Of a DNA stretch of 64,000 nt, positions 2,387-30,868 are shown one piece after another (the first letter of the stretch is position 1; each line of letters begins with the position of its first letter). The notes under the pieces are model-generated. The model did not search any database and was not told where the DNA came from. It worked only from the letters and a program-made list of their open reading frames with translations. A program made the position numbers and the translations under genes. The DNA is from a virus. Location of the stretch: positions 1-64,000 of the IMG/VR virus record IMGVR_UViG_3300045119_000370; one strand, given 5' to 3'.

Positions 2387-2956
2387 ATGCTCATCCGTCA
2401 CTCGATCCCCGGGTTCAGCCACCGGGTCTATGGCTCGCTCGCTTCGCTTTTCGTGCCGCTGTTCGACGCCATGCTGCCCAAGCACAACAACGTGCTCGCG
2501 GTGGTCGAGGGCGACGAGGGTAGGCTGCTTATCCCGGCGCACAACATCGTCACCGATGCCGGCGACATCTGGTACGCCCAGAAGGGCTGCGGCGAGGCCC
2601 CGACCAATGCCTTCAACACGATGGTCATGTGCTCGGCCGGCACGCCCGGCAAGGCCGCCGTCTATTCCGCCTTTACCGCCATCGCTGGCTCGTCCAAGGT
2701 GGTCAGCGCCGGCTATCCGAGGACCAACGATCCCGACGCCGACAACACAGGCGACGCAGTCAACGTCGCTTCATGGCTGGGATCGTGGGCCAAGGCCGAC
2801 TTCAACAACGCCGCGATCAGCCATGGTCTGATCACGATTGCCGCGCCGGTCTCCGGTTCAAACCTCTTGACCGGCTACGCTTTCGCCGCGCCCTTCGCCA
2901 AGACGGTCAACGACACGCTGAAGGTGTTTGTCAATCATCAAATGCTCGGCGTGTGA
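2387..2956 (+). CDS. Putative virion structural protein (fibre-associated)
   Basis: AGGAG RBS; HNIVTDAGD..KTVNDTLKV pattern typical of phage fibre-proximal proteins; context. Confidence 0.55.
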   Translation: MLIRHSIPGFSHRVYGSLASLFVPLFDAMLPKHNNVLAVVEGDEGRLLIPAHNIVTDAGDIWYAQKGCGEAPTNAFNTMVMCSAGTPGKAAVYSAFTAIAGSSKVVSAGYPRTNDPDADNTGDAVNVASWLGSWAKADFNNAAISHGLITIAAPVSGSNLLTGYAFAAPFAKTVNDTLKVFVNHQMLGV

Positions 2957-2960
2957 GCGC

Positions 2961-3389
2961 ATGAGCAAGTCCGATCTCTTCGAAAACGACCTGCTCAAGC
3001 TGATCTTCAACGCGACGCCGATTGCCAACATCGCAGACAACGCGGCGTCGATTCCGTTGACCCAGATTTGGGTGGCGTTGCACACCGCTGATCCCGGCGA
3101 ATCTGGCAATCAATCGACCAGCGAAGCGGCGTATTCGGGCTACACACGCATCGGCGTTAACCGCACCAGTGCTGGATGGACGGTGACCGGCAACTCGGTC
3201 TCGCCGGTCGCCAGCATCGACTTCCCAGAGGCCGCTGGGGCTGGGAGCAACATCACGCACTGGTCGGCAGGTGTCGCATCGGGTGGCGCGACCAAAATAC
3301 TGTACTCAGGAACGGTGACGCCAAACATTGCCATCGCGGCCGGCGTCACCCCGCGTCTGAAGAACACGAGCACCGTCACCGAGGACTGA
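2961..3389 (+). CDS. Conserved phage virion/tail-fibre-associated protein
   Basis: MSKSDLFENDLLKLIF..VALHTADPGE..SEAAYSGYTR signature. Confidence 0.7.
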   Translation: MSKSDLFENDLLKLIFNATPIANIADNAASIPLTQIWVALHTADPGESGNQSTSEAAYSGYTRIGVNRTSAGWTVTGNSVSPVASIDFPEAAGAGSNITHWSAGVASGGATKILYSGTVTPNIAIAAGVTPRLKNTSTVTED

Positions 3390-3394
3390 TCCCC

Positions 3395-4204
3395 TTGGTT
3401 CAGGTCTATCCCAACCGGGCGCGCTGCCTCACGTCGACCATCGGCACCGGCACTGTTACGCTCGGCGCTGCCGTGCCACGCTTTCAGACTTTTGTGCAAG
3501 CCGGCGTCGTTGACACCAACGCCTTCCGTTATCTGATCGATGACGGCAACGATTGGGAGGTCGGTCAGGGCACGTATGTCGCCGCTGGCAATCAAGTGCA
3601 GCGCTCACTGATCGAGTCGTCCACAGGTGCGCTGCTCAACCTGTCGGGCAACGCCCAGATCGGCATCGACTTCTACAATTACGACATGGCTTACCCGTCC
3701 TACGCCTTCAACGCACTGCGGGCGATACCGGGTGGCGGCCAGAATTTCATGCTGTTCATGCAGACCAACGCTCCGACATTTTGGACTAAGTACACTGGCT
3801 ACAACGACCGCATACTGCGTATTGTGACAGGAGCGGCGAGTTATGGTGGCGTGCAATTGTTCTCGACGGTCTTCGGTCGTGCCACTACTGACAATTACAC
3901 GTTGGCGGTTGGGGACAACGTCGCGCATGGCCATTCGGTGAATGACACGTCTAACGGTCACAACGTTACTCACTATCATGACTACACTGGCCCGCCGTCA
4001 GGTCATGCCCCGTCCGGTGGCGGTATCCAGTCCAGTGGTCACTGCAACGACTATGGTCCGGTCAATACGGGGACGATTTCGGTTGGTCACACTCACGTAA
4101 CCGCGTCGACCTCGACCCCGAACGTCGGCAGTTCTTACCCGCACGCTCATAATAACGAGTTACGCGTTGCCTACGTCGATGTGATCGCAGCGACCAAGGA
4201 CTGA
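3395..4204 (+). CDS. Short tail fibre/needle protein with HxH motifs
   Basis: TTG start after GAGGA; GTGTVTLG..WEVGQGTY N-domain; collar-like MQTNAPTFWTK; several HxH; ends YVDVIAATKD. Confidence 0.7.
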   Translation: MVQVYPNRARCLTSTIGTGTVTLGAAVPRFQTFVQAGVVDTNAFRYLIDDGNDWEVGQGTYVAAGNQVQRSLIESSTGALLNLSGNAQIGIDFYNYDMAYPSYAFNALRAIPGGGQNFMLFMQTNAPTFWTKYTGYNDRILRIVTGAASYGGVQLFSTVFGRATTDNYTLAVGDNVAHGHSVNDTSNGHNVTHYHDYTGPPSGHAPSGGGIQSSGHCNDYGPVNTGTISVGHTHVTASTSTPNVGSSYPHAHNNELRVAYVDVIAATKD

Positions 4205-4206
4205 CA

Positions 4207-5817
4207 ATGCCTTTTCGCTACGCCAACCATGTGAAGGTGACGACCCCGACGGTTGGTCAGGGCACTCTGACTTTGGGTGCACCCGTCACCCGGTATCGCA
4301 GCTTTGGGGCTGGTGGTTACGCTGATGGTGATACTTGCCGCTACGTAATCGAGGACGGCAATGATTGGGAGATCGGCACCGGCACTCTTGGTGGTGGTGT
4401 CACCACACTAGCGCGGTCGGCCTTTCTGGCTTCCTCGACCGGCACTTGGATATCATGCACTGGCAATGCCACGGTGATGGTCGACATCATCGCCGAGGAC
4501 TTTACCTACAACGGTATTGGTGCGACGCCCGACATGGCGGCCGGGACGCCCATGCTGTTCTGGATGACGACACCGACCCCCGGTTGGACCAAGACCACCA
4601 ACACTGGTTGGAATGATCGGGCGCTGCGCATTGTCAACGGTGCGGCTAGTTACGGTGGGTCTTACTTGTTTTCGACGGTCTTCGGTTCGCGCACGCAGAC
4701 CGACGCGTTTTATATGGACGCGACCTACATGACCGCGCACGCGCACTCAATGTCGGACACGTCGGGGGGTGCCAGCGTCAATCACACTCATGTCTATCAG
4801 CGCGTGCTCGGGACGACCGGCAATGACTATACGGCTGGTGGTACGGTCGGGGCCAGCGAAGGTCTTACGGCGGCGATCAACTCTTCGGGTGACAGTGTTG
4901 CTCACAACCACGTCTGGTCGGCGACGAGCGGTGCGGCCTCATGGAGCAGCACCCACCAGCACGGCATCGAGATGCGCGTCGCGTATGTCGATGTCATTTA
5001 CGCGACGCGTGACGCGCCTCCACCAATTGTTAAGCTGGCCAACCGGGCAAGGCAATTTACTGCGACCGTCGGCCAAGGGACACTCACGCTTGGTGCGGCG
5101 ATGCCCCGTTACCGGACCTTCGCGGCGGCCGGCGTCGTCGATGGGAACAGTGTCCACTACGTGATCGAGGATGGCGTCAATTGGGAACTCGGCACCGGTG
5201 TTCTCGGTGGTGGCGGGACGACGCTGACCCGTGCACTGATCCAGTCCTCGACCGGTGCCCTGCTCTCGCTTTCTGGCAATGCCAATGTCCGCATTGATAT
5301 ACTTGGCATTGACATCAACGCGGCTCAGTGTGGCGCACTGCCGAATATGAACGGGGCGTTGATGGTCTTTATGCAGACCACACCCCCGGTGAGTTGGACC
5401 AAGAACACGGGCGCGAATGATTATTTGTTGCGTTGTAGTGGTACAGGCACAGGCGGAACGACGGGCGGCGCGGTGCTATTTTCAACGGTGTTTGGTTCGC
5501 GCACGGCGACCGATGCAATCAATGCCGACCTGATCTCGCACACCCATTACTTCACCGATACGACCAACGGTCAGTCGGCCAACCACTCGCACACCTACCA
5601 GCACTCGTCGGGTACCGAGCAGGGCACGAACAATGGCGCGGGCAACATGCCACGACCAGAGACTGCCGGTATCAATTCCGGCAATGCCAGTGCGACGCAC
5701 GTTCACGCCGTGTCGGCGACCTCCTCGACCTACGGTTCGAGTGCGCTGCACAGCCACCCGATTGACATGCGCGTGCAGTACACAGATGTAATTTTGGCCA
5801 GTAAAGACGCGGAGTAA
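4207..5817 (+). CDS. Tail fibre protein with two tandem copies of the same module
   Basis: Internal duplication, each half aligning with the 3395-4204 product (WEIGTG/WELGTG, FSTVFGSRT, HxH, MRV.Y.DVI.A..D). Confidence 0.75.
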   Translation: MPFRYANHVKVTTPTVGQGTLTLGAPVTRYRSFGAGGYADGDTCRYVIEDGNDWEIGTGTLGGGVTTLARSAFLASSTGTWISCTGNATVMVDIIAEDFTYNGIGATPDMAAGTPMLFWMTTPTPGWTKTTNTGWNDRALRIVNGAASYGGSYLFSTVFGSRTQTDAFYMDATYMTAHAHSMSDTSGGASVNHTHVYQRVLGTTGNDYTAGGTVGASEGLTAAINSSGDSVAHNHVWSATSGAASWSSTHQHGIEMRVAYVDVIYATRDAPPPIVKLANRARQFTATVGQGTLTLGAAMPRYRTFAAAGVVDGNSVHYVIEDGVNWELGTGVLGGGGTTLTRALIQSSTGALLSLSGNANVRIDILGIDINAAQCGALPNMNGALMVFMQTTPPVSWTKNTGANDYLLRCSGTGTGGTTGGAVLFSTVFGSRTATDAINADLISHTHYFTDTTNGQSANHSHTYQHSSGTEQGTNNGAGNMPRPETAGINSGNASATHVHAVSATSSTYGSSALHSHPIDMRVQYTDVILASKDAE

Positions 5818-25123: not shown

Positions 25124-25708
25124 ATGGTTGCTCGAACTGCGCTGATACTTGGCCGGGCAGCGACCGTCTGGAACGAGATAGAAGCGGCGAGAAAGCTCGC
25201 CGTTTTCGACGTCATCATCGCCATCAACCGTATGGGACGCGACTTCAAAGAGCCGTTTCAGCACTGGGTTTCCTACCATCCCGATTTCTTTCCGCAATGG
25301 ACGCGCGAGCGTAAGGAACCATTACCAGACGGTTTGATGTACTGGTCCGGTATCTACAAGAACAACCGGATGGGCGACTCTAAGAGGATTAAACTACCGA
25401 TTCAGTACTGTAGGTTTTCAGGTGGTTCGTCAGGTATGCTGGCGATCAAGGTGGCCATTGATGGTCTCGGCCTCGAACGCATCGTTTTGGCCGGCATCCC
25501 GATGGACAACACGCCGCGTTACGATGACAAGGTAGCTTGGCGCGAGGCCGACGCTTACTGGATTGCTTGGATCAACGAGAAGCCTTGGATGGCTGGTCGA
25601 GTTCGTTCGATGTCAGGCAGGACCAGTAAGCTCTTGGGTACGCCCGATGCGGCTTGGCTCGGCGAGGAGAAGACCGATGCTGGCGAAGGTGTCACCGTTG
25701 CCGCGTGA
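25124..25708 (+). CDS. Maf/sialyltransferase-like (MptE/GT42-like fold) protein
   Basis: ALILG, VIIAIN, GGSSG..AI..A..LG..RIVLAGIPMD. Confidence 0.65.
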   Translation: MVARTALILGRAATVWNEIEAARKLAVFDVIIAINRMGRDFKEPFQHWVSYHPDFFPQWTRERKEPLPDGLMYWSGIYKNNRMGDSKRIKLPIQYCRFSGGSSGMLAIKVAIDGLGLERIVLAGIPMDNTPRYDDKVAWREADAYWIAWINEKPWMAGRVRSMSGRTSKLLGTPDAAWLGEEKTDAGEGVTVAA

Positions 25709-26747
25709 ACCAACGCTGCAAATGCAAGACGATCTGGAGGCGCATTTTCAACAGGCTTTCCAACGCTATGTTGGTGGTCTGCGCAACTCGCCCACGCTGG
25801 CGCGAGCGGCCACGCGCGCGCAGGACGGCGACGATGTCGATGCACTGATGGAGCAGTTTCAGCCGTACATCGAGCGGCTGGCCGAGGAGCGCCGCCGCAT
25901 GGCCGCGCACGTGATCGTCAACACACGCAAGGAATTGAGCCGCAAGCTCTTGGGCAAGGCGGACGGGGAAACCGACGGTGCTGGAGACTTGAACAGCACC
26001 GTCGGTTTATCGTTCGATCCCGAGCTTGCTGCCGCTGCATCGCTGATGGAGGGCCAAGACCTCGACTTCATCGTCGAGTTCACCGATGCACAGCGTGAGG
26101 CCGTGCGCACGGCCCTGACCAGAGCGTTGCAGACTGGCAAGGGCACGGCGGCTACGGCGCGCTCGTTCCGTAATTCGATTGGCCTGACATCGGCTCAGCA
26201 GAGCGCCGTCGACACTTACGAAGAGCTTCTCCAGAGTAACAGCGCGGAAGCGCTCGACCGCATCTTGCGTGACAGCCGCTACGACGCCGGCTTGACGACG
26301 GCAATCGCTGCCGGCGAGCCGCTGAGCGCCGGCCGTATCGCTACCATGGTCGACAGCTACGCTTCGCGTTATCTGGCCATGCGAGCCGAGACCATCGCTC
26401 GTACCGAGACCACGCGTGTTCTGAACATGGCGCGACAGGAGACCACCATGCAAGTGGTCGACGATGTCGGCATCCCGGCGGACGAGGTCGTGCGCACTTG
26501 GACCGCCACCAATGACAAACGCACACGTGATACGCACGCCGCCATGGATGGGCAGGAACGTGGCTTAAACGAGCCATTTGATAGCCCGTCCGGCGCGCAA
26601 TTGATGTACCCGGGCGACCCGGATGCTCCCGCCGAAGAGGTCATAAACTGCCGTTGTGCTGTGTTGATTTCGTTCAAATCGACGGCCCCGACGGCCGATG
26701 AGACGGCGGCGGCGGTGGACGAAGTGGTGGCTGATGAAGGTGGATGA
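25698..26747 (+). CDS. Phage MuF-like minor head protein
   Basis: RAETIARTE, RTW.AT.D.RTR.TH..MDGQ, L.YPGDP..PAEEVINCRC. Confidence 0.9.
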   Translation: MPREPTLQMQDDLEAHFQQAFQRYVGGLRNSPTLARAATRAQDGDDVDALMEQFQPYIERLAEERRRMAAHVIVNTRKELSRKLLGKADGETDGAGDLNSTVGLSFDPELAAAASLMEGQDLDFIVEFTDAQREAVRTALTRALQTGKGTAATARSFRNSIGLTSAQQSAVDTYEELLQSNSAEALDRILRDSRYDAGLTTAIAAGEPLSAGRIATMVDSYASRYLAMRAETIARTETTRVLNMARQETTMQVVDDVGIPADEVVRTWTATNDKRTRDTHAAMDGQERGLNEPFDSPSGAQLMYPGDPDAPAEEVINCRCAVLISFKSTAPTADETAAAVDEVVADEGG

Positions 26748-27099
26748 GGAGGAGCATCGGGCGCGTGTCGTCTACACCGAGGCGGTGCTGGCCAAGATTC
26801 CCTTGTTGGTCATGGATGGCTGGAGCCTCGACGCGATTGCCGCGTATATCGGGACCAGTGAGGGGAGCTTGCTGGCGACGTGTTCACGGCTGGGAATCAG
26901 CTTGAAAGGTGCCAAGAAACCGAAGGGTAAGCGGGTTACGGACGAATATGTGGTCCGTTTGCCTAAGCCATTGTCGGAAAAGCTGGAAAGCCGGGCGCTC
27001 GACCTCTCGATGACCACCGAACATCTGGTTGTGGTGCTGCTTAGCCAGATCGTGGCTGACAATTTGATCGAGGCCGTGCTCGATTTCGACGCCGATTAG
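26734..27099 (+). CDS. HTH (GcrA-like) plus ribbon-helix-like DNA-binding protein
   Basis: GWSLDAIAAYIGTSEGSL..CSRLGISL; C-terminal VVRLP..L.EKL..RA. Confidence 0.55.
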   Translation: MKVDEEEHRARVVYTEAVLAKIPLLVMDGWSLDAIAAYIGTSEGSLLATCSRLGISLKGAKKPKGKRVTDEYVVRLPKPLSEKLESRALDLSMTTEHLVVVLLSQIVADNLIEAVLDFDAD

Positions 27100-27161
27100 A
27101 CCGGCTCGGAAAACTTAAACAACCACGCATTGGCACTGCTCGTGGGCCGGATTATGGCTAC

Positions 27162-28373
27162 GTGGTGCCTTACGCCAACAACTCTGATTTGCCCGCACAA
27201 GTGCGCGATGCACTGCCCGACGCAGCGCAGAGCCGCTTTCGCGCGGTGGTCAACTCGGCGCTGGCGCGCGGCCTGAGCGACGCCAAGGCGTTTGGTTCTG
27301 GCTGGGCCGTGATCAACAACGGTTGGATCAAGCCCGTTAACGGCGGCAAGTGGGTGCACAAGTCGGCGACGCCGCGCACTTTGTTCGCTTCGCGGCCGGT
27401 CGAGAACGCCAAGGACGTGATCGATTGGGCCAAGGGTCAGGGTTTCCCGACCACGCTTGTCCCCGAAGCCATGCATGTCACGCAGGCGTACTCGAAAGAG
27501 CCGTTGCAGTGGCCCGAGACGCTCGACAACACCGTCACCGTGGATGGCACGGCCGGTCGCAAGGTCGGCTCGCTCGGTGATCAGGGCGCGATGGTCCTCC
27601 ATTTCGACAGCCCGGCGCTGAGCGACCGTCACCAGCAATTGCGTGATGCCGGCGCGTCGTCGGATTACCCGCTTTACCAACCGCACGTCACCATCAGCTG
27701 GAAGGCCGATGGTGTCGATCCGTCCAAGGTGACTCCCTACACCGGACCAATCGTGCTTGGCCCGGAACGCTTCCGCGAGATCGACCCCAACTGGGAGCAG
27801 AAAGCCATGGAAAAGGCTGGTGCACGTCACAACGCCTCCGACCGCAAGCATGTGCAATCGGTCCATGACAGCGCAGTGCATCTCGGCGCGGACTGTCCCG
27901 GTATGGCCAAGCGCGACGACCTCGACGACGAGCGCTTCGAGAAGTTCGACGCACTGACCACCATCAACGGTGCCGGCGAGCCGGCGTCACGCGCCAGTGT
28001 CATCAAGGTCAGTGACGAACTCGGTCTGGTGTTCGGCTGGGCCATGATCTGCAAAGACGGCGGCAACGATTACTTCGATGTGCAGGACGACCACATCCCC
28101 GAAGACGCCATGCTCAAGGCGAGCGCAGAGTTCATGCTGAGCCGGCGCGTCGCCAAAGAGATGCACTTCGGCGACGAGATGGGCACCATCGTTTTCGCCT
28201 TTCCGGTCACCTCTGATGTCGCCAAGGCGATGAACATCTCGACCGACCGCACTGGTTTGATGATTGCGATGAAGCCTTCCAGTGAAGCGCTCTTGGAGAA
28301 GTTCAGGAGCGGCGAATACACCGGTTTCAGTATCGGTGGTCAACGTCTCGTCGATGAGGAGATGGCGGCATGA
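27162..28373 (+). CDS. Fusion: ChaB domain + Acb1-like 2H phosphodiesterase + XkdF-like prohead serine protease
   Basis: PYANNSDLP..V..LP..AQ..NSA..W..KW (ChaB); HVTQAYS..RH..GA..DY..Y.PHVTIS (2H); LVFGWA..D.QDD..EMH..GEYTGFSIGG (protease). Confidence 0.8.
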   Translation: MVPYANNSDLPAQVRDALPDAAQSRFRAVVNSALARGLSDAKAFGSGWAVINNGWIKPVNGGKWVHKSATPRTLFASRPVENAKDVIDWAKGQGFPTTLVPEAMHVTQAYSKEPLQWPETLDNTVTVDGTAGRKVGSLGDQGAMVLHFDSPALSDRHQQLRDAGASSDYPLYQPHVTISWKADGVDPSKVTPYTGPIVLGPERFREIDPNWEQKAMEKAGARHNASDRKHVQSVHDSAVHLGADCPGMAKRDDLDDERFEKFDALTTINGAGEPASRASVIKVSDELGLVFGWAMICKDGGNDYFDVQDDHIPEDAMLKASAEFMLSRRVAKEMHFGDEMGTIVFAFPVTSDVAKAMNISTDRTGLMIAMKPSSEALLEKFRSGEYTGFSIGGQRLVDEEMAA

Positions 28374-29311
28374 GTGTCAACATCGATGGTGATCTGCACA
28401 AGCCCCGCCGCCGCAACATCATGCGAGCCTTCAAGATCAGTGAGATCAGTGCAGTCGACCGCCCGGCACAAGAAGGCGCGAAAGCGGCGATCATCAAGCG
28501 CAACAGTAACGCAAACACAGGAGACGGTTCGATGACCGAGAAGGAACTTCAGAAGAAGATCGACGACCTCGCCGCCGAGCTTGCCAAGGTGAAGGCCGAT
28601 GGCGAGGCCAAGATCGGTGATCTTTCGACGGCCAACGCCGAACTTGTCACCAAGGCGGCCGCCGCCACCGAGGAGGCCGAGACACTGAAGGCGAAGGGCA
28701 AGCTGACGCCACAGCAGCAGGCGTTCCTTGACCAGCAGGAAGGCGAGACCGCCGACGAGGACAAGAAGAAGAAGGCCACCAAGGCGTTCCTCGCCATGAC
28801 CCCCGAGCAGCGTGACAAGCTCATCGCCGAGAAGCGCGCCAACGACGAGGTCATCACCATCGACGGCGAGGAGATGCGCAAGTCGGTGATCGGCGCGACC
28901 CAGTTCAACATCCTGAAGCGGCAGTCCGAGCGCGTCGCCACACTGGAGAAGTCCAGTAAGGACGCCATCGAGAAGGCCGAGACGGCGGAACTCGCCAAGC
29001 GCGCCGACGATGAGTTCTCGCATCTACCCGGCACCACCGACGACAAGGTCGGTGTGCTGCGCGTCATCGGCAAGGCCGACAAGAAGGTGCAGGAGACGTT
29101 CGCCGCAATGATGAAGGCCGGCGAGAAGGCGATCAACGGCGCGTTCGAGAAGCTCGGTCATCGCGGTGGCAACCAGACGGTCGATGCCGGCGCATTCGAG
29201 AAGCGCGTCGCCGAGGTCCGCGCGCGCGATGGTTCCTCGCGCATGGACGCCATGGAGAAGGCCCGCAAGGAATTCCCCACCGAGTTCGCGGCCTACCAAG
29301 GCCAGAACTAA
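28370..29311 (+). CDS. Scaffolding protein with N-terminal protease-like strand
   Basis: EISAVDRPAQ then a long Lys/Glu/Ala coiled coil; lies between protease and capsid genes. Confidence 0.75.
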   Translation: MSVNIDGDLHKPRRRNIMRAFKISEISAVDRPAQEGAKAAIIKRNSNANTGDGSMTEKELQKKIDDLAAELAKVKADGEAKIGDLSTANAELVTKAAAATEEAETLKAKGKLTPQQQAFLDQQEGETADEDKKKKATKAFLAMTPEQRDKLIAEKRANDEVITIDGEEMRKSVIGATQFNILKRQSERVATLEKSSKDAIEKAETAELAKRADDEFSHLPGTTDDKVGVLRVIGKADKKVQETFAAMMKAGEKAINGAFEKLGHRGGNQTVDAGAFEKRVAEVRARDGSSRMDAMEKARKEFPTEFAAYQGQN

Positions 29312-29444: not shown

Positions 29445-29792
29445 ATGACCACGAGCAAAGACCTTAGTCTCTCGTATGCCCGGCTGGCCGGCGCAGACCT
29501 GAGCAATGCACTGAACAAGTTCGGGATGGTCGACACCAACGGTAACATCGTCTTGGCGACCGCTGCCGCCAAAGTGCTCGGCACCATCATCGAAGAGAAC
29601 AACATCAACTACCCGGTCACCGTTCAGTACGGCGGGCAGGGCAAGGTCATCGTCGGTGCGGCACCGGTCACTGCCGGCGCGGTGATCGCTTCCGACGCCA
29701 ACGGTCTCGCCGTAGCCGGCGCGACCAACCCGGTCGGCGTTGCCCTGACCGGTGGCGCTCCCGGCACAGTCATCGAGTTCGCCTTCGCGTAG
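29445..29792 (+). CDS. Capsid decoration/cement protein (DUF2190-like)
   Basis: AGADL..KF..V..AG..I.SDANG.AV..GVAL; upstream of MCP. Confidence 0.75.
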   Translation: MTTSKDLSLSYARLAGADLSNALNKFGMVDTNGNIVLATAAAKVLGTIIEENNINYPVTVQYGGQGKVIVGAAPVTAGAVIASDANGLAVAGATNPVGVALTGGAPGTVIEFAFA

Positions 29793-29857: not shown

Positions 29858-30868
29858 ATGCCCGTCGCCTCGAACGATGGCGTAAACATTCAGGGTGCCC
29901 TTCACGTCGATAGGTACCTGACCGGCTTCTCGATCAACTACGTGCAGGACAGAAACAACTTCGTGTCGTATCGCGCCGCGTCGTTGATCTCGGTACAGAA
30001 ACAGACCGACCTCTACGTCGTCTACGACCGTGGCTTCTTCTGGCGCGACGAGGTGGCACCTCGCCCGCTCGGTGGTCGCCCCGAGCAAGTCGGCTACAAG
30101 TTCGCCGATGGCAGCTACAAGTGCACCGAGTTCGCACTGGAGCATGTCATTGACGACCGTCAGCGTGCCAACGCCGACGACCCGATCCGCCTCGATCAGA
30201 ACGCCACGACCCTGCTGACCCAGAAGCACATGATCAAGCAGGACAGGGTGTGGGCGCAGAATTTCTTCGTCCCCGGCGCATGGTCGACGCAGGCAACCGG
30301 TGTGGTCTCCGCACCCGGTAGCAACCAGTTCGTCCAGTTCAACGACGCGCTCTCACAGCCCATCGAGATCGTCGACTACTGGAAAGATCAGATGCACCAG
30401 AAGACCGGCTTCATGCCCAATACACTGGTGCTCGGCGCGGCGGTCAAGCGCATCCTGCGTTCGAACCCCGACATCGCCGACCGCATCAAGTACACCCGTA
30501 CCGGCGTCGCCGACGAAGACCTGCTCGGCTCGCTGTTCGAGGTCGACAACGTCGTCGTGGCGCGCTCGATCTACAATGCGGCGATGGAAGGCGCGGCCGA
30601 CAATTTCCAGTACATCGTCGACCCGAACGCCATGATCCTGCTCTACATCGAGCAGAACCCCGGCCTCGACAGCCCGACCGCCATCGCGAACTTCGCATGG
30701 ACCGGCCTCATCCCGGGCGAGACCAATGCCATCGGCGGCGTCATCGAGCGCGGCCGTGACGACCGTGCGCACTCCGATTACTTCCAAGGGCGCATGGCGT
30801 GGGATTTGCGCTTGGTCGCACCCGATCTCGGCGTGTTCTTCACCAACGCGGTAGCGCCCGGCTCGTAA
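29858..30868 (+). CDS. Major capsid protein
   Basis: 336 aa; HVDRYLT..SI.Y, G..PNTLVLG, DLR.VAPDLG.FF..AV. Confidence 0.9.
   Translation: MPVASNDGVNIQGALHVDRYLTGFSINYVQDRNNFVSYRAASLISVQKQTDLYVVYDRGFFWRDEVAPRPLGGRPEQVGYKFADGSYKCTEFALEHVIDDRQRANADDPIRLDQNATTLLTQKHMIKQDRVWAQNFFVPGAWSTQATGVVSAPGSNQFVQFNDALSQPIEIVDYWKDQMHQKTGFMPNTLVLGAAVKRILRSNPDIADRIKYTRTGVADEDLLGSLFEVDNVVVARSIYNAAMEGAADNFQYIVDPNAMILLYIEQNPGLDSPTAIANFAWTGLIPGETNAIGGVIERGRDDRAHSDYFQGRMAWDLRLVAPDLGVFFTNAVAPGS

What the first reader, a model, noticed from the sequence alone, without database searches (positions are those of the whole stretch)
27162..28373. Prohead protease fused to ChaB and an Acb1-like anti-CBASS phosphodiesterase
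Seen: ChaB-like (~27162-27360), 2H domain with HVT..HVT (~27372-27785), a KAGARHN..HD..LGA.C segment, and an XkdF-like protease (~27990-28373). Lys-containing linkers (VHKS, MEKA, MAKR, FEKF) separate them. Established: T4 gp57B/Acb1 (HST..YS, RH..GA..D..Y.PHITLSY) degrades CBASS cyclic nucleotides, and phage prohead proteases have been reported as CBASS triggers. Inference: a self-processing polyprotein that ties the antidote to a trigger and may package it into heads, using the same Lys-cleavage logic as the 1-2 kb effectors.
Basis: partly seen in the sequence, partly recalled or inferred. Interest (0 to 1): 0.85.

Follow-up and report, generated by a model that had tools for sequence, protein, structure and literature searches.

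The report
Anti-CBASS enzyme fused to head protease
An uncultured 118-kb phage makes its capsid-maturation protease as one chain with an intact-looking Acb1 enzyme, the kind that destroys bacterial CBASS alarm nucleotides; the design is common in metagenomes, untested at the bench, and most likely loads the enzyme into the phage head.

Summary
ORF 27162-28373 (+), 403 aa, is ChaB (res 3-68), Acb1-type 2H phosphodiesterase (72-215, both HxT motifs), a conserved helix motif (218-246), a disordered linker (248-276) and an XkdF-type prohead protease core (276-403, His335/Ser390). It lies in a siphophage head module: MuF, small gene, this gene, scaffold, small gene, major capsid protein. It is the only Acb1 and the only head-protease match in a 117,742-bp virus record rated complete.

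The fusion is not a one-off. 199 of 257 fetched homologues carry both Acb1 and XkdF. This scan has already reported the same design on other DNA. A 2017 paper described 2H domains and C-terminal assemblin-like peptidases in phage "polyvalent" proteins.

Best reading: a cargo-protease. The protease core ends 10 residues after its Ser motif. The next strand of the fold opens the scaffold gene and is predicted to dock on the core. This would carry ChaB-Acb1 into proheads.

The trigger-antidote idea is timely, since prohead proteases activate CBASS, but it is untested. It is weakened because Acb1 also rides on portals and the protease carries other cargos. Only two of the four proposed Lys sites are conserved.

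Verdict: new member of a known kind, moderate interest.

The parts
27162..28373 (+). Whole gene: ChaB-Acb1-XkdF cargo-protease, 403 aa. GTG start at 27162, or more likely GTG at 27165.
27168..27365 (+). ChaB-like domain (res 3-68).
   Evidence: Pfam PF06150, 27.4 bits against cut-off 27. VIA-align to E. coli ChaB 1sg7: Z 9.2, rmsd 1.8 A over 65 residues.
27375..27806 (+). Acb1-type 2H phosphodiesterase domain (res 72-215). HxT motifs at 27474-27482 and 27684-27692. Lid Trp211.
   Evidence: Pfam PF23474, 117.4 bits. 7t27_A: Z 17.7, rmsd 1.7 A over 135 residues. Foldseek 7t26: E 2.8e-9. H105, T107 and H175 invariant in 72 of 72 rows.
27807..27818 (+). Conserved domain-boundary motif, here A-M-E217-K218. 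Family consensus is (V/I)-(T/V)-E-K. Candidate processing site.
   Evidence: E in 61 of 72 rows, K in 60 of 72. In P0002 the same K starts a KYN..HD..GRF tag. Cleavage itself is inferred.
27813..27899 (+). K-x-GARH(N/S)..D...Q..HD....LGA.C helix motif (res 218-246), function unknown.
   Evidence: Helix 225-240 in the model. The stricter pattern found it in 44 of 257 homologues at varying positions. Weak PHROG 2753 'head maturation protease' match. No PDB relative.
27903..27989 (+). Disordered, non-conserved linker (res 248-276) holding MAKR and FEKF.
   Evidence: pLDDT <50. 59-71 of 72 rows have gaps at res 247-269, fewer towards res 276.
27987..28370 (+). XkdF-type prohead protease core (res 276-403). 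His335 at 28164-28166; Ser390 at 28329-28331, inside GFSIGG.
   Evidence: Pfam PF14550, 34.9 bits. T4 gp21 5jbl_A: Z 9.0, rmsd 2.4 A over 109 residues. D306, H335 and S390 in 72 of 72 rows. The only such match in the genome.
28370..29311 (+). Scaffold-like gene, ATGA-overlapped with the protease gene.
   Evidence: Model: res 1-56 without secondary structure, then long helices (57-110, 176-215, 238-266), pLDDT 84.0. Position between protease and capsid gene.
28406..28501 (+). Scaffold N-terminal motif (res 13-44, ..IMRAFKISEISAVDRPAQ..IIKR): the strand segment that follows the Ser motif in single-chain relatives. Predicted docking site for the protease core.
   Evidence: Weak PF04586 match to model positions 130-159 (11.5 bits). 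Contiguous with the Ser motif in P0204. Found just after the protease stop in 55 of 80 related loci, in all three relative frames. Invariant E25, V29, P32, Q34, A37, K43. Complex model.
25563..26747 (+). MuF-like minor head protein (context).
   Evidence: PF04233, 62.7 bits.
29858..30868 (+). Major capsid protein (context).
   Evidence: phrog_1005, E 9.7e-77. PF03864. 47% identical to Erythrobacter phage capsid proteins.

Best explanation
The gene encodes the phage's prohead (capsid-maturation) protease with two passenger domains on its N-terminal side. These are a small ChaB-like domain and a catalytically intact Acb1-type 2H phosphodiesterase, which cleaves cyclic di- and tri-nucleotide immune signals such as those of CBASS.

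The protease core is incomplete on its own. The strand segment that follows the catalytic Ser in single-chain relatives is the N-terminus of the next gene, the scaffold. Docking of that segment onto the core hooks the ChaB-Acb1-protease chain to the scaffold, so it is built into proheads. There the protease cuts scaffold and itself, probably at the conserved (V/I)-(T/V)-E-K boundary after Acb1. The folded Acb1 stays in the head and is delivered with the DNA into the next cell.

Because it is a late protein in one chain with the protease, Acb1 is also present in the producing cell exactly when the protease appears.

Shown here: domain identities, conserved catalytic residues, recurrence of the design, gene order, the split of the protease fold.

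Inferred: enzyme activity, docking in vivo, cleavage, encapsidation, injection.
For: Domain identity:
- Pfam Acb1, 117.4 bits against cut-off 27.
- The best solved match of the model is FBB1 Acb1 7t27_A (Z 17.7, rmsd 1.7 A, 135 aligned). This is above all other 2H enzymes; the next are 14.2, then <=10.6. Foldseek E 2.8e-9.
- The HxT/HxT tetrad that the Acb1 paper defines (PMC9117128, passage) is H105/T107/H175 in 72 of 72 rows, with T177 in >=90%.
- The lid Trp aligns and is W in 56 of 72 rows.

Protease:
- PF14550, 34.9 bits.
- T4 gp21 5jbl_A: Z 9.0, rmsd 2.4 A, 109 aligned. VZV protease: Z 5.2, rmsd 2.8 A, 89 aligned.
- H335 and S390 are in 72 of 72 rows. They are 55 residues apart, as are gp21 H85 and S140 (the catalytic-dead mutant named in 10.64898/2026.03.04.709575, passage).
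- It is the only XkdF match in the genome. There is no ClpP, S49 or S77 match, and none over the cut-off for S78.

Recurrence:
- 199 of 257 fetched homologues have Acb1 plus XkdF; 67 of these also have ChaB. The set is biased because the query was the fusion itself.
- 428 cluster representatives match at E<=1e-30.

Cargo logic:
- The same slot holds ADP-ribosyltransferase or zeta-toxin kinase domains between Acb1 and the protease in P0039, P0081 and P0090.
- 32 of 195 proteins have >100 aa between Acb1 and XkdF.
- The Acb1 part also matches portal C-termini: Pam3 portal 8hds_A res 466-618, E 1e-19, and Rhizobium, Pseudomonas and Synechococcus phage portals.
- Iyer et al. 2017 (PMC5512222, section 20 and passages) report 2H domains fused to MuF or portal. 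They also report an assemblin-like peptidase always at the C-terminus of polyvalent proteins.

Hook to the scaffold:
- 199 of 210 family proteins end within 19 residues after the Ser motif.
- The conserved ..EIS(A/G)VD.PAQ.. segment starts the next gene in 55 of 80 related loci. The same holds in the nearest cultured relative, Erythrobacter phage vB_EliS_R6L gp94/gp93.
- Complex model of protease res 270-403 with scaffold res 1-60: verdict 'supports binding', score 0.66, best of 3 controls 0.00. That mark was reached by 58 of 80 solved complexes and 2 of 110 mismatched pairs; the counts hold only roughly because my own alignments were used. The runs agree in at least 66% of contacts, and the partner's pLDDT is at least 48.
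- Contacts 392:24, 394:22 and 396:20 show antiparallel pairing with the strand after Ser390.
- On its own, scaffold res 1-56 has no secondary structure.
Against: - No activity, cleavage or virion data exist for this or any member I could find.
- The complex model may pass from likeness to solved single-chain proteases, as halves of a split fold do. The partner's own fold is uncertain (pLDDT under 50 in at least one run). The docked segment carries an I/L-x-E motif with invariant E25, so the model could instead show a substrate in the cleft rather than fold completion.
- Z 9.0 for the protease fold is only middling on this tool's scale.
- ChaB passes Pfam by 0.4 bits.
- Prohead proteases of HK97 and T4 are thought (recalled) to digest themselves and leave the head. 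Retention of a passenger is therefore an assumption.
- CBASS fires late in infection (passages), so early delivery is not obviously needed.
- The nearest cultured relative has a bare 159-aa protease. On a FastTree of 248 XkdF domains, Acb1 presence changes at least 27 times (300 shuffles: mean 46.9, min 41). The cargo is therefore dispensable and often swapped.
- No isolated phage among 50,697 records covers >=80% of the protein (0 of 159 matching records).
Confidence: 0.55

Rival explanations
1. Trigger-antidote coupling is the main reason for the fusion. Some CBASS cyclases are switched on when a phage prohead protease cuts their activation loop. A protease that carries its own signal-degrading Acb1 would cancel the alarm it raises, in the producing cell, whether or not Acb1 is packaged.
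For: T4 gp21 is sufficient to activate CBASS. About 24% of CBASS operons have a protease-sensitive loop, and 7 of 9 tested loop-bearing cyclases responded to proteinase K (bioRxiv 10.64898/2026.03.04.709575, passages). Escape mutations map to the prohead protease (10.1101/2023.05.21.541620, passage). The XkdF core shares the gp21 fold and His/Ser spacing. Acb1 is by far the commonest passenger in the fetched set, 199 of 257, although that set is biased by the query. No Acb4 or Tad2 family match was found elsewhere in the genome.
Against: Acb1 is an enzyme, so 1:1 stoichiometry with the trigger gives no obvious gain over a separate late gene. Acb1 is also fused to portals and, per Iyer 2017, to MuF, which are not known triggers. 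The same protease carries unrelated cargos. No XkdF-type protease has been tested against CBASS in the passages I read. The host, and whether it has CBASS, is unknown.
Confidence: 0.2
2. The 2H domain acts on RNA rather than on immune nucleotides. It could be an RNase, or a 2',3'-cyclic-phosphate or 2'-5' phosphodiesterase delivered with the DNA, as Iyer et al. 2017 first proposed for 2H domains of polyvalent proteins.
For: Iyer 2017, section 20 gives this as one of two options. PHROG 755 'RNA ligase' matches res 85-214 (E 4e-18). LigT-type 2H enzymes are structural neighbours (Z <=10.6).
Against: The Acb1 family model scores 117 bits, while the general 2H model is below its cut-off. The nearest solved structure by a clear margin is Acb1 (Z 17.7, rmsd 1.7 A, 135 aligned, against Z 10.6, rmsd 3.6 A, 140 aligned for a LigT-type phosphoesterase). 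The lid Trp is kept. Iyer et al. never saw these 2H versions next to RNA ligases.
Confidence: 0.1
3. ChaB-Acb1 is not cargo. It acts only in the cytoplasm, or serves as a bulky pro-region that keeps the protease out of trouble until assembly. It is then degraded or left outside the head.
For: Prohead proteases are commonly made with removable regions (recalled). The linker 248-276 is disordered and variable. The cargo is gained and lost often.
Against: The catalytic residues of Acb1 are invariant in 72 of 72 rows, so the enzyme itself is under selection. Acb1 also rides on portal C-termini, which (recalled) face the capsid interior. Injected-effector-type domains occupy the same slot.
Confidence: 0.15

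Closest known systems
Acb1 anti-CBASS nuclease (phage T4 gene 57B product; Erwinia phage FBB1 Acb1, PDB 7T26/7T27; Pfam PF23474; Hobbs et al. 2022, PMC9117128)
   Same: 2H fold (Z 17.7, rmsd 1.7 A, 135 aligned). HxT/HxT tetrad and lid Trp. Family model well over its cut-off.
   Different: Known Acb1 enzymes are free-standing proteins of about 150 aa. This one is an internal domain of the head protease chain. It is 26% identical to FBB1 Acb1, and its activity is untested.
Portal proteins with a C-terminal Acb1-like domain (cyanophage Pam3 portal gp3, PDB 8HDS; portals of Rhizobium phages RHEph04/06, Pseudomonas phage phiPSA1, Synechococcus phages)
   Same: An Acb1-type domain joined to a protein that sits inside the head. 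E 1e-19 to 8hds_A res 466-618.
   Different: The carrier is the portal rather than the protease. The passages of the Pam3 paper that I read list five portal parts and do not mention this domain (PMC9942802).
Phage 'polyvalent proteins' with a C-terminal assemblin-like peptidase and 2H domains (Iyer, Burroughs, Anand, de Souza, Aravind 2017, PMC5512222)
   Same: Several effector domains in one chain within the virion module. The peptidase is at the C-terminus. A 2H domain was predicted to degrade defence nucleotides.
   Different: The text I read names 2H fusions to MuF and portal, not to the peptidase. It does not name ChaB or XkdF (0 occurrences each). Its figures and supplements were not seen.
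Bare XkdF-type prohead protease plus scaffold, e.g. Erythrobacter phage vB_EliS_R6L gp94 and gp93 (KY006853.1)
   Same: Same gene order (MuF, protease, scaffold, small gene, capsid protein). The same protease core ends just after the Ser motif, and the scaffold opens with the same strand motif. The capsid protein is 47% identical.
   Different: gp94 is 159 aa with no ChaB or Acb1.
T4 gp21 prohead protease with capsid-targeted internal proteins (IPI-III, Alt)
   Same: Works like it. The protease fold is shared (Z 9.0, rmsd 2.4 A, 109 aligned). Passengers are taken into the prohead, trimmed and injected; this T4 biology is recalled, and Alt packaging is also stated in PMC5512222.
   Different: T4 passengers are separate genes with a short targeting peptide. 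Here the passenger is covalently joined to the protease.

Membership tests
Acb1 (Pfam PF23474) | Family profile match over the curated cut-off | tested here: met
   117.4 bits against 27, res 73-214, covering 2-144 of 144 profile positions. 120.1 bits on the DNA.
Acb1 (Pfam PF23474) | Compact 2H phosphoesterase fold like FBB1 Acb1 | tested here: met
   7t27_A: Z 17.7, rmsd 1.7 A, 135 of 140 aligned. Foldseek 7t26: E 2.8e-9, TM 0.78 on the target. This is a predicted model, pLDDT 93-98 over the domain.
Acb1 (Pfam PF23474) | HxT/HxT catalytic tetrad | tested here: met
   H105-V-T107 and H175-V-T177. H105, T107 and H175 are in 72 of 72 rows, T177 in >=90%. They align to the two HxT of 7t26_A.
Acb1 (Pfam PF23474) | C-terminal lid with a stacking Trp | tested here: met
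   W211 aligns with the Trp of the FBB1 C-terminal lid segment. W in 56 of 72 rows. The other stacking residues named in the paper could not be mapped with certainty.
Acb1 (Pfam PF23474) | Cleaves 3'3'-cGAMP and cyclic trinucleotides and rescues phage from CBASS | not testable with these tools
   Needs enzyme assays and plating.
XkdF-type prohead protease (Pfam PF14550, Peptidase_S78_2) | Family profile match over the cut-off | tested here: met
   34.9 bits against 24, res 279-394. 37.9 bits on the DNA.
XkdF-type prohead protease (Pfam PF14550, Peptidase_S78_2) | Assemblin / T4 gp21 fold | tested here: met
   5jbl_A: Z 9.0, rmsd 2.4 A, 109 aligned over res 276-403. 1vzv_A: Z 5.2, rmsd 2.8 A, 89 aligned. 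Z 9 is only a little above this tool's usual background of 7-8.
XkdF-type prohead protease (Pfam PF14550, Peptidase_S78_2) | Catalytic His and Ser | tested here: met
   H335 and S390 (in GFSIGG) are in 72 of 72 rows. Their spacing of 55 equals that of gp21 H85/S140. Residue-by-residue superposition was not available.
XkdF-type prohead protease (Pfam PF14550, Peptidase_S78_2) | Whole protease fold in one chain, continuing into the scaffold part | tested here: not met
   The chain ends 10 residues after GFSIGG. The following strand motif opens the next gene. This holds for most of this subfamily (55 of 80 loci), so it is a split variant.
XkdF-type prohead protease (Pfam PF14550, Peptidase_S78_2) | Placed in the head module next to scaffold and capsid genes | tested here: met
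   MuF at 25563-26747, scaffold-like gene at 28370-29311, capsid gene at 29858-30868.
ChaB (Pfam PF06150) | Profile match and ChaB fold | tested here: met
   27.4 bits against 27, a bare pass. 1sg7: Z 9.2, rmsd 1.8 A, 65 aligned, 34% identity.
Phage polyvalent proteins (Iyer et al. 2017) | Two or more effector-type domains in one chain in a virion gene context, with a processing peptidase | tested here: met
   ChaB, Acb1 and a C-terminal assemblin-like peptidase within the head module.
Phage polyvalent proteins (Iyer et al. 2017) | Packaged in the virion and delivered into the host | not testable with these tools
   Only indirect support: the docking model and portal fusions.

The most novel reading that the evidence does not exclude
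The fusion is an evolved answer to protease-sensing CBASS. The enzyme that trips the cyclase's activation loop carries its own alarm-destroying nuclease, so that no active protease is ever present without Acb1. After self-cleavage at the conserved (V/I)-(T/V)-E-K boundary, the same Acb1 molecules are trapped in the head and injected, disarming cyclic-nucleotide signalling in the next host from the first minute. The abundance of Acb1-protease fusions in metagenomes would then be independent, natural evidence that prohead proteases are a major CBASS trigger well beyond T4.
Probability: 0.2. Interest if true: 0.8.

Novelty: new member of a known kind. Interest (0 to 1): 0.48.

Why it matters
If the reading is right, phages deliver a ready-made anti-CBASS enzyme inside the capsid, using the head protease as the carrier and the scaffold as the hook. 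That would add a virion-borne route to counter-defence by signal degradation, which so far is known from free cytoplasmic enzymes and sponges.

It would also give a simple natural design for loading foreign enzymes into phage heads: fuse them to the N-terminus of an XkdF-type protease core.

The link to the 2024-2026 reports that prohead proteases activate CBASS makes a direct test possible. Does a protease with built-in Acb1 fail to set off a loop-bearing cyclase, and does that need Acb1 in cis?

As a single case it adds little. The design is common in metagenomes, was foreshadowed in 2017 and has been met repeatedly in this scan. Its value lies in being an untested, widespread class.

Tried and rejected
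1. Programmed frameshift joining protease and scaffold: rejected.
- The scaffold frame is open for only four codons before its ATG, and no slippery heptamer is present.
- In 55 related loci the motif lies in relative frame 0 (5 loci), 1 (15) or 2 (35). These are therefore two genes.

2. A second head protease elsewhere in the genome.
- No match for ClpP, S49 or S77.
- The only S78 signal is the 11.5-bit hit on the scaffold N-terminus.

3. Solved relative of the GARHN..LGA.C motif: none. The best hit has E 1.4 to diol dehydratase, which is chance. In 80 related IMG/VR loci the motif occurs in only 4, always inside the protease ORF. Its role stays unexplained.

4. Other anti-signalling families in the genome (Acb4 PF13876, Tad2 PF11195): no match.

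5. Isolated phage with the full fusion: 0 of 159 matching records cover >=80% of the query. tblastn at E 1e-5 may miss weak domains.

6. Literature searches.
- 'Acb1' + 'prohead protease': 6 papers, 5 listed.
- 'Acb1' + 'fused' + 'CBASS' + 'portal': 5 papers, 4 listed.
- 'XkdF' + 'ChaB': 0.
- 'Acb1' + 'polyvalent': 4.
- 'BCSR5' + 'phosphodiesterase': 0.
- 'XkdF' alone: 78, mostly unrelated.
- I read passages of PMC9117128, 10.64898/2026.03.04.709575, 10.1101/2023.05.21.541620, PMC13728456, 10.1101/2025.07.12.664507, PMC5512222 and PMC9942802. None of those passages describes an Acb1-protease fusion.
- PMC11722364, PMC12409349, PMC11410667, PMC11249213 and the four papers were seen only as search listings. 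Figures and supplements (closed) of PMC5512222 and PMC9117128 may show such architectures.

7. Mapping of the four stacking residues named in PMC9117128 onto this domain: given up, because the numbering in the text could not be matched to the chain index.

8. 10.1101/2022.12.30.519816 proved irrelevant.
Full report
WHAT IS THERE

The ORF 27162-28373 on the + strand (403 aa, GTG start) is real. Homologues begin M-P-Y, which corresponds to the second GTG at 27165, so the start may be one codon later.

Pfam finds three domains:
- ChaB, res 10-67, 27.4 bits against a cut-off of 27.
- Acb1 (PF23474), res 73-214, 117.4 bits against 27.
- Peptidase_S78_2/XkdF, res 279-394, 34.9 bits against 24.

An AlphaFold2 model built on 72 homologues has mean pLDDT 86.8. 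It shows three confident domains, a helix at 225-240 and a disordered stretch at 248-276. I compared the model with 48,161 solved chains:
- Acb1 part: FBB1 Acb1 7t27_A, Z 17.7, rmsd 1.7 A, 135 aligned. This is well above other 2H enzymes (14.2 for a Burkholderia phage phosphodiesterase, then <=10.6).
- ChaB part: E. coli ChaB 1sg7, Z 9.2, rmsd 1.8 A, 65 aligned.
- C-terminal part: T4 gp21 head protease 5jbl_A, Z 9.0, rmsd 2.4 A, 109 aligned. A herpesvirus protease scores Z 5.2 (rmsd 2.8 A, 89 aligned).

Foldseek agrees for Acb1 (E 2.8e-9).

CATALYTIC RESIDUES

The Acb1 paper defines an HxT/HxT tetrad and a C-terminal lid with a stacking Trp (PMC9117128, passages). Here the tetrad is H105-V-T107 and H175-V-T177.
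- H105, T107 and H175 are invariant in 72 of 72 aligned homologues; T177 is in at least 90%.
- W211 aligns with the lid Trp of FBB1 Acb1 and is Trp in 56 of 72 rows.

In the protease part, D306, H335 and S390 (inside GFSIGG) are invariant. H335 and S390 are 55 residues apart, the same spacing as H85 and S140 of T4 gp21. Those two are the residues mutated in the catalytic-dead gp21 of the 2026 preprint (passage).

Both enzymes therefore look intact.

CONTEXT

The window is the first 64 kb of a 117,742-bp virus record that CheckV rates 100% complete. A 127-bp copy of the contig start lies 182 bp from its end.

The gene sits in a siphophage head module:
- MuF-like protein, 25563-26747.
- An unassigned 133-aa gene.
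- This gene.
- A scaffold-like gene, 28370-29311.
- A 115-aa gene matching PHROG 673.
- The major capsid protein, 29858-30868.
- Later, a tape-measure protein and a gpJ-like protein.

It is the only XkdF match and the only Acb1 match in the genome. ClpP, S49 and S77 protease families give nothing, and S78 gives only a sub-threshold hit discussed below. By capsid protein, the nearest cultured phages are Erythrobacter phages (47% identity) and Roseobacter phage RDJL Phi 1 (38%). An alphaproteobacterial host is therefore likely, but that is only an inference.

HOW COMMON IS THE DESIGN

One search gave 296 homologues, many with the same three Pfam domains. The exhaustive search gave 3,785 at E<=0.001 and 428 at E<=1e-30.

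I classified the 257 proteins in hand with HMMs cut from my alignment:
- 199 carry both Acb1 and XkdF.
- 67 of those also carry ChaB.
- 33 have XkdF with ChaB and/or the helix motif but no Acb1, and 18 match XkdF alone; the remaining 7 match Acb1 but not XkdF.
- The set is biased, because the fusion itself was the query.

In some members, further modules sit between Acb1 and the protease. P0039 has an ADP-ribosyltransferase, P0081 an ART-PolyVal domain, and P0090 a zeta-toxin-like kinase. In 32 of 195 proteins the spacer exceeds 100 aa.

On a FastTree of 248 XkdF domains (9 of 257 left out for weak or absent domain matches), Acb1 presence changes at least 27 times. Across 300 label shuffles the mean was 46.9 and the minimum 41. 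ChaB changes 50 times against a shuffle mean of 74.4. The passengers are therefore inherited in clades but often gained, lost or swapped. The tree is short and quick, so these counts are rough.

Among 50,697 isolated-phage records, 159 match some part of the protein but none covers 80% of it. There the Acb1 part hits portal C-termini (Rhizobium, Pseudomonas phiPSA1 group, Synechococcus). The protease part hits 'DNA methyltransferase/prohead protease' genes (Rhizobium, RDJL phages). The solved Pam3 portal (8hds_A) matches at res 466-618, E 1e-19. The passages I read of the Pam3 paper do not mention that domain.

The nearest cultured relative, Erythrobacter phage vB_EliS_R6L, has the same gene order but a bare 159-aa protease.

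THE HOOK TO THE SCAFFOLD

The protease chain stops 10 residues after GFSIGG. Of 210 family proteins with that motif, 199 end within 19 residues of it.

The next gene overlaps by ATGA and opens with ..IMRAFKISEISAVDRPAQEGAKAAIIKR.. . Three results tie this segment to the protease fold:
- It gives a weak match to the last part of the HK97-type protease model PF04586 (positions 130-159 of 165, 11.5 bits, E 0.02).
- In one relative (P0204) it follows the Ser motif in the same chain.
- In 80 related IMG/VR loci (the best 80 of 174 confirmed), the motif lies just downstream of the protease stop in 55. In 14 my pattern found none within 360 nt. In 11 my script did not locate the Ser motif.

The motif's frame relative to the protease gene is 0 in 5 loci, 1 in 15 and 2 in 35. 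Here, only four codons are open upstream of the scaffold ATG. The two are therefore separate genes and not a frameshift product.

R6L gp93 starts with the same motif. In 36 aligned scaffolds, E25, V29, P32, Q34, A37 and K43 are invariant.

Alone, the scaffold model has no secondary structure in res 1-56 and long helices after that (pLDDT 84.0).

I ran a complex model of protease res 270-403 with scaffold res 1-60.
- Verdict: 'supports binding', score 0.66, best of three controls 0.00.
- That mark was reached by 58 of 80 solved complexes and 2 of 110 mismatched pairs. These counts hold only roughly, because my own alignments were used.
- The runs agree in at least 66% of contacts. The partner's pLDDT is at least 48, and its own fold is uncertain.
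- Scaffold res 13-31 lie against protease res 384-401 and 308-324.
- The pairs 392:24, 394:22 and 396:20 have the pattern of an antiparallel strand next to the one that follows Ser390.

Two cautions apply. Halves of a split fold can pass from likeness to solved single-chain proteases. Also, the docked segment contains an I/L-x-E motif (E25 invariant), so it could be a bound substrate rather than a missing piece of the fold.

This split was also noted separately on this window and followed up on other genomes by this scan. I reached it independently, before reading those notes.

PROCESSING SITES

- Two are conserved: K67 after ChaB (K in 44 rows, R in 7, gap in 16, of 72) and E217-K218 after Acb1 (61 and 60 of 72). 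The latter is preceded by V/I/H/M and T/V.
- In P0002 that Lys is the first residue of a KYN..HD..GRF tag. By pattern match, the same tag appears 15 times in the giant head-module proteins of this genome.
- The other two strings, MAKR and FEKF, lie in the disordered linker, which most homologues lack.

Because gp21 cuts after Glu in I/L-x-E (passage), the conserved (V/I)-(T/V)-E-K could be cut after E or after K. Nothing here decides this, and no cleavage has been shown.

THE MIDDLE MOTIF

K-x-GARH(N/S)..D...Q..HD....LGA.C forms a helix in the model.
- The stricter pattern finds it in 44 of 257 homologues. It lies before the protease, between ChaB and Acb1, or at the N-terminus.
- It occurs once in this genome.
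- It occurs in 4 of 80 related loci, always in the protease ORF.
- It has no solved relative.

Its role is unexplained. A docking or recognition element is a guess.

WHAT IS KNOWN

- Acb1 as a free anti-CBASS nuclease: Hobbs et al. 2022. Its main text does not contain the words fused, prohead, portal or capsid.
- Prohead protease as CBASS determinant and trigger: Richmond-Buccola et al. (preprint passage; journal reference seen in a reference list) and Hobbs & Kranzusch 2026.
- Iyer et al. 2017 described 2H domains in phage polyvalent proteins, fused to MuF or portal, and suggested they might degrade defence nucleotides. They also noted that an assemblin-like peptidase is always at the C-terminus of such proteins. 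ChaB and XkdF are not named in that text. I could not see its figures or supplements.
- My four targeted searches found no paper describing an Acb1-protease fusion in the passages I read. Several listed papers were not opened.
- This scan has reported the same design on other genomes, with the same overall verdict.

VERDICT

The simplest account is a cargo-protease of the polyvalent-protein kind. Its Acb1 is active against cyclic-nucleotide signals and is carried into the head through the protease-scaffold hook. It is a new member of a known, widespread but experimentally untouched kind.

Noticed in passing
window 28370-28501 (scaffold N-terminus) with 28323-28373: The protease fold is split. 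The strand motif that follows the Ser motif in single-chain relatives opens the scaffold gene (ATGA overlap). It is conserved in 55 of 80 related loci and predicted to dock on the core. It was noted separately on this window by the scan.
   Followed up: yes
genome C1: 150-188, 854-892, 1582-1617 (window) and twelve sites between 104822 and 117130 (beyond the window): Fifteen in-frame copies of a K(Y/F/S)N..H/P...G.F peptide tag punctuate the giant head-module proteins. The same tag follows Acb1 in homologue P0002.
   Followed up: partly
window 27813-27899: The GARH(N/S)..D...Q..HD....LGA.C helix motif is a mobile element. It was found at different positions in 44 of 257 homologues, has no solved relative, and its role is unknown.
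   Followed up: partly
genome C1: 1-127 and 117560-117686: The first 127 bases of the contig recur 182 bases before its end. This suggests a circular or terminally redundant genome, although the record is classed 'linear'.
   Followed up: partly
L084 (KY006853.1) 2737-3216 and 3206-4483: The nearest cultured relative, Erythrobacter phage vB_EliS_R6L, has a bare 159-aa XkdF core (gp94) and a scaffold (gp93) opening with the same strand motif. Both are annotated as hypothetical proteins.
   Followed up: yes
PDB 8hds_A residues 466-618; phage records: Portal proteins of cyanophage Pam3 and of Rhizobium, Pseudomonas and Synechococcus phages end in an Acb1-like domain. The passages read of the Pam3 paper do not mention it.
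   Followed up: partly
homologues P0039, P0081, P0090: ADP-ribosyltransferase (two kinds) or a zeta-toxin-like kinase sits between Acb1 and the protease core. This shows a cargo slot that takes several effector types.
   Followed up: partly
window 29445-29792: The 115-aa gene between scaffold and capsid gene matches PHROG 673 'head scaffolding protein' (E 1.8e-11). Its real role (decoration or scaffold) is open.
   Followed up: no
window 27096-27881, minus strand: A 261-aa open frame lies antisense to the gene. It is most likely a shadow frame of GC-rich coding DNA.
   Followed up: no
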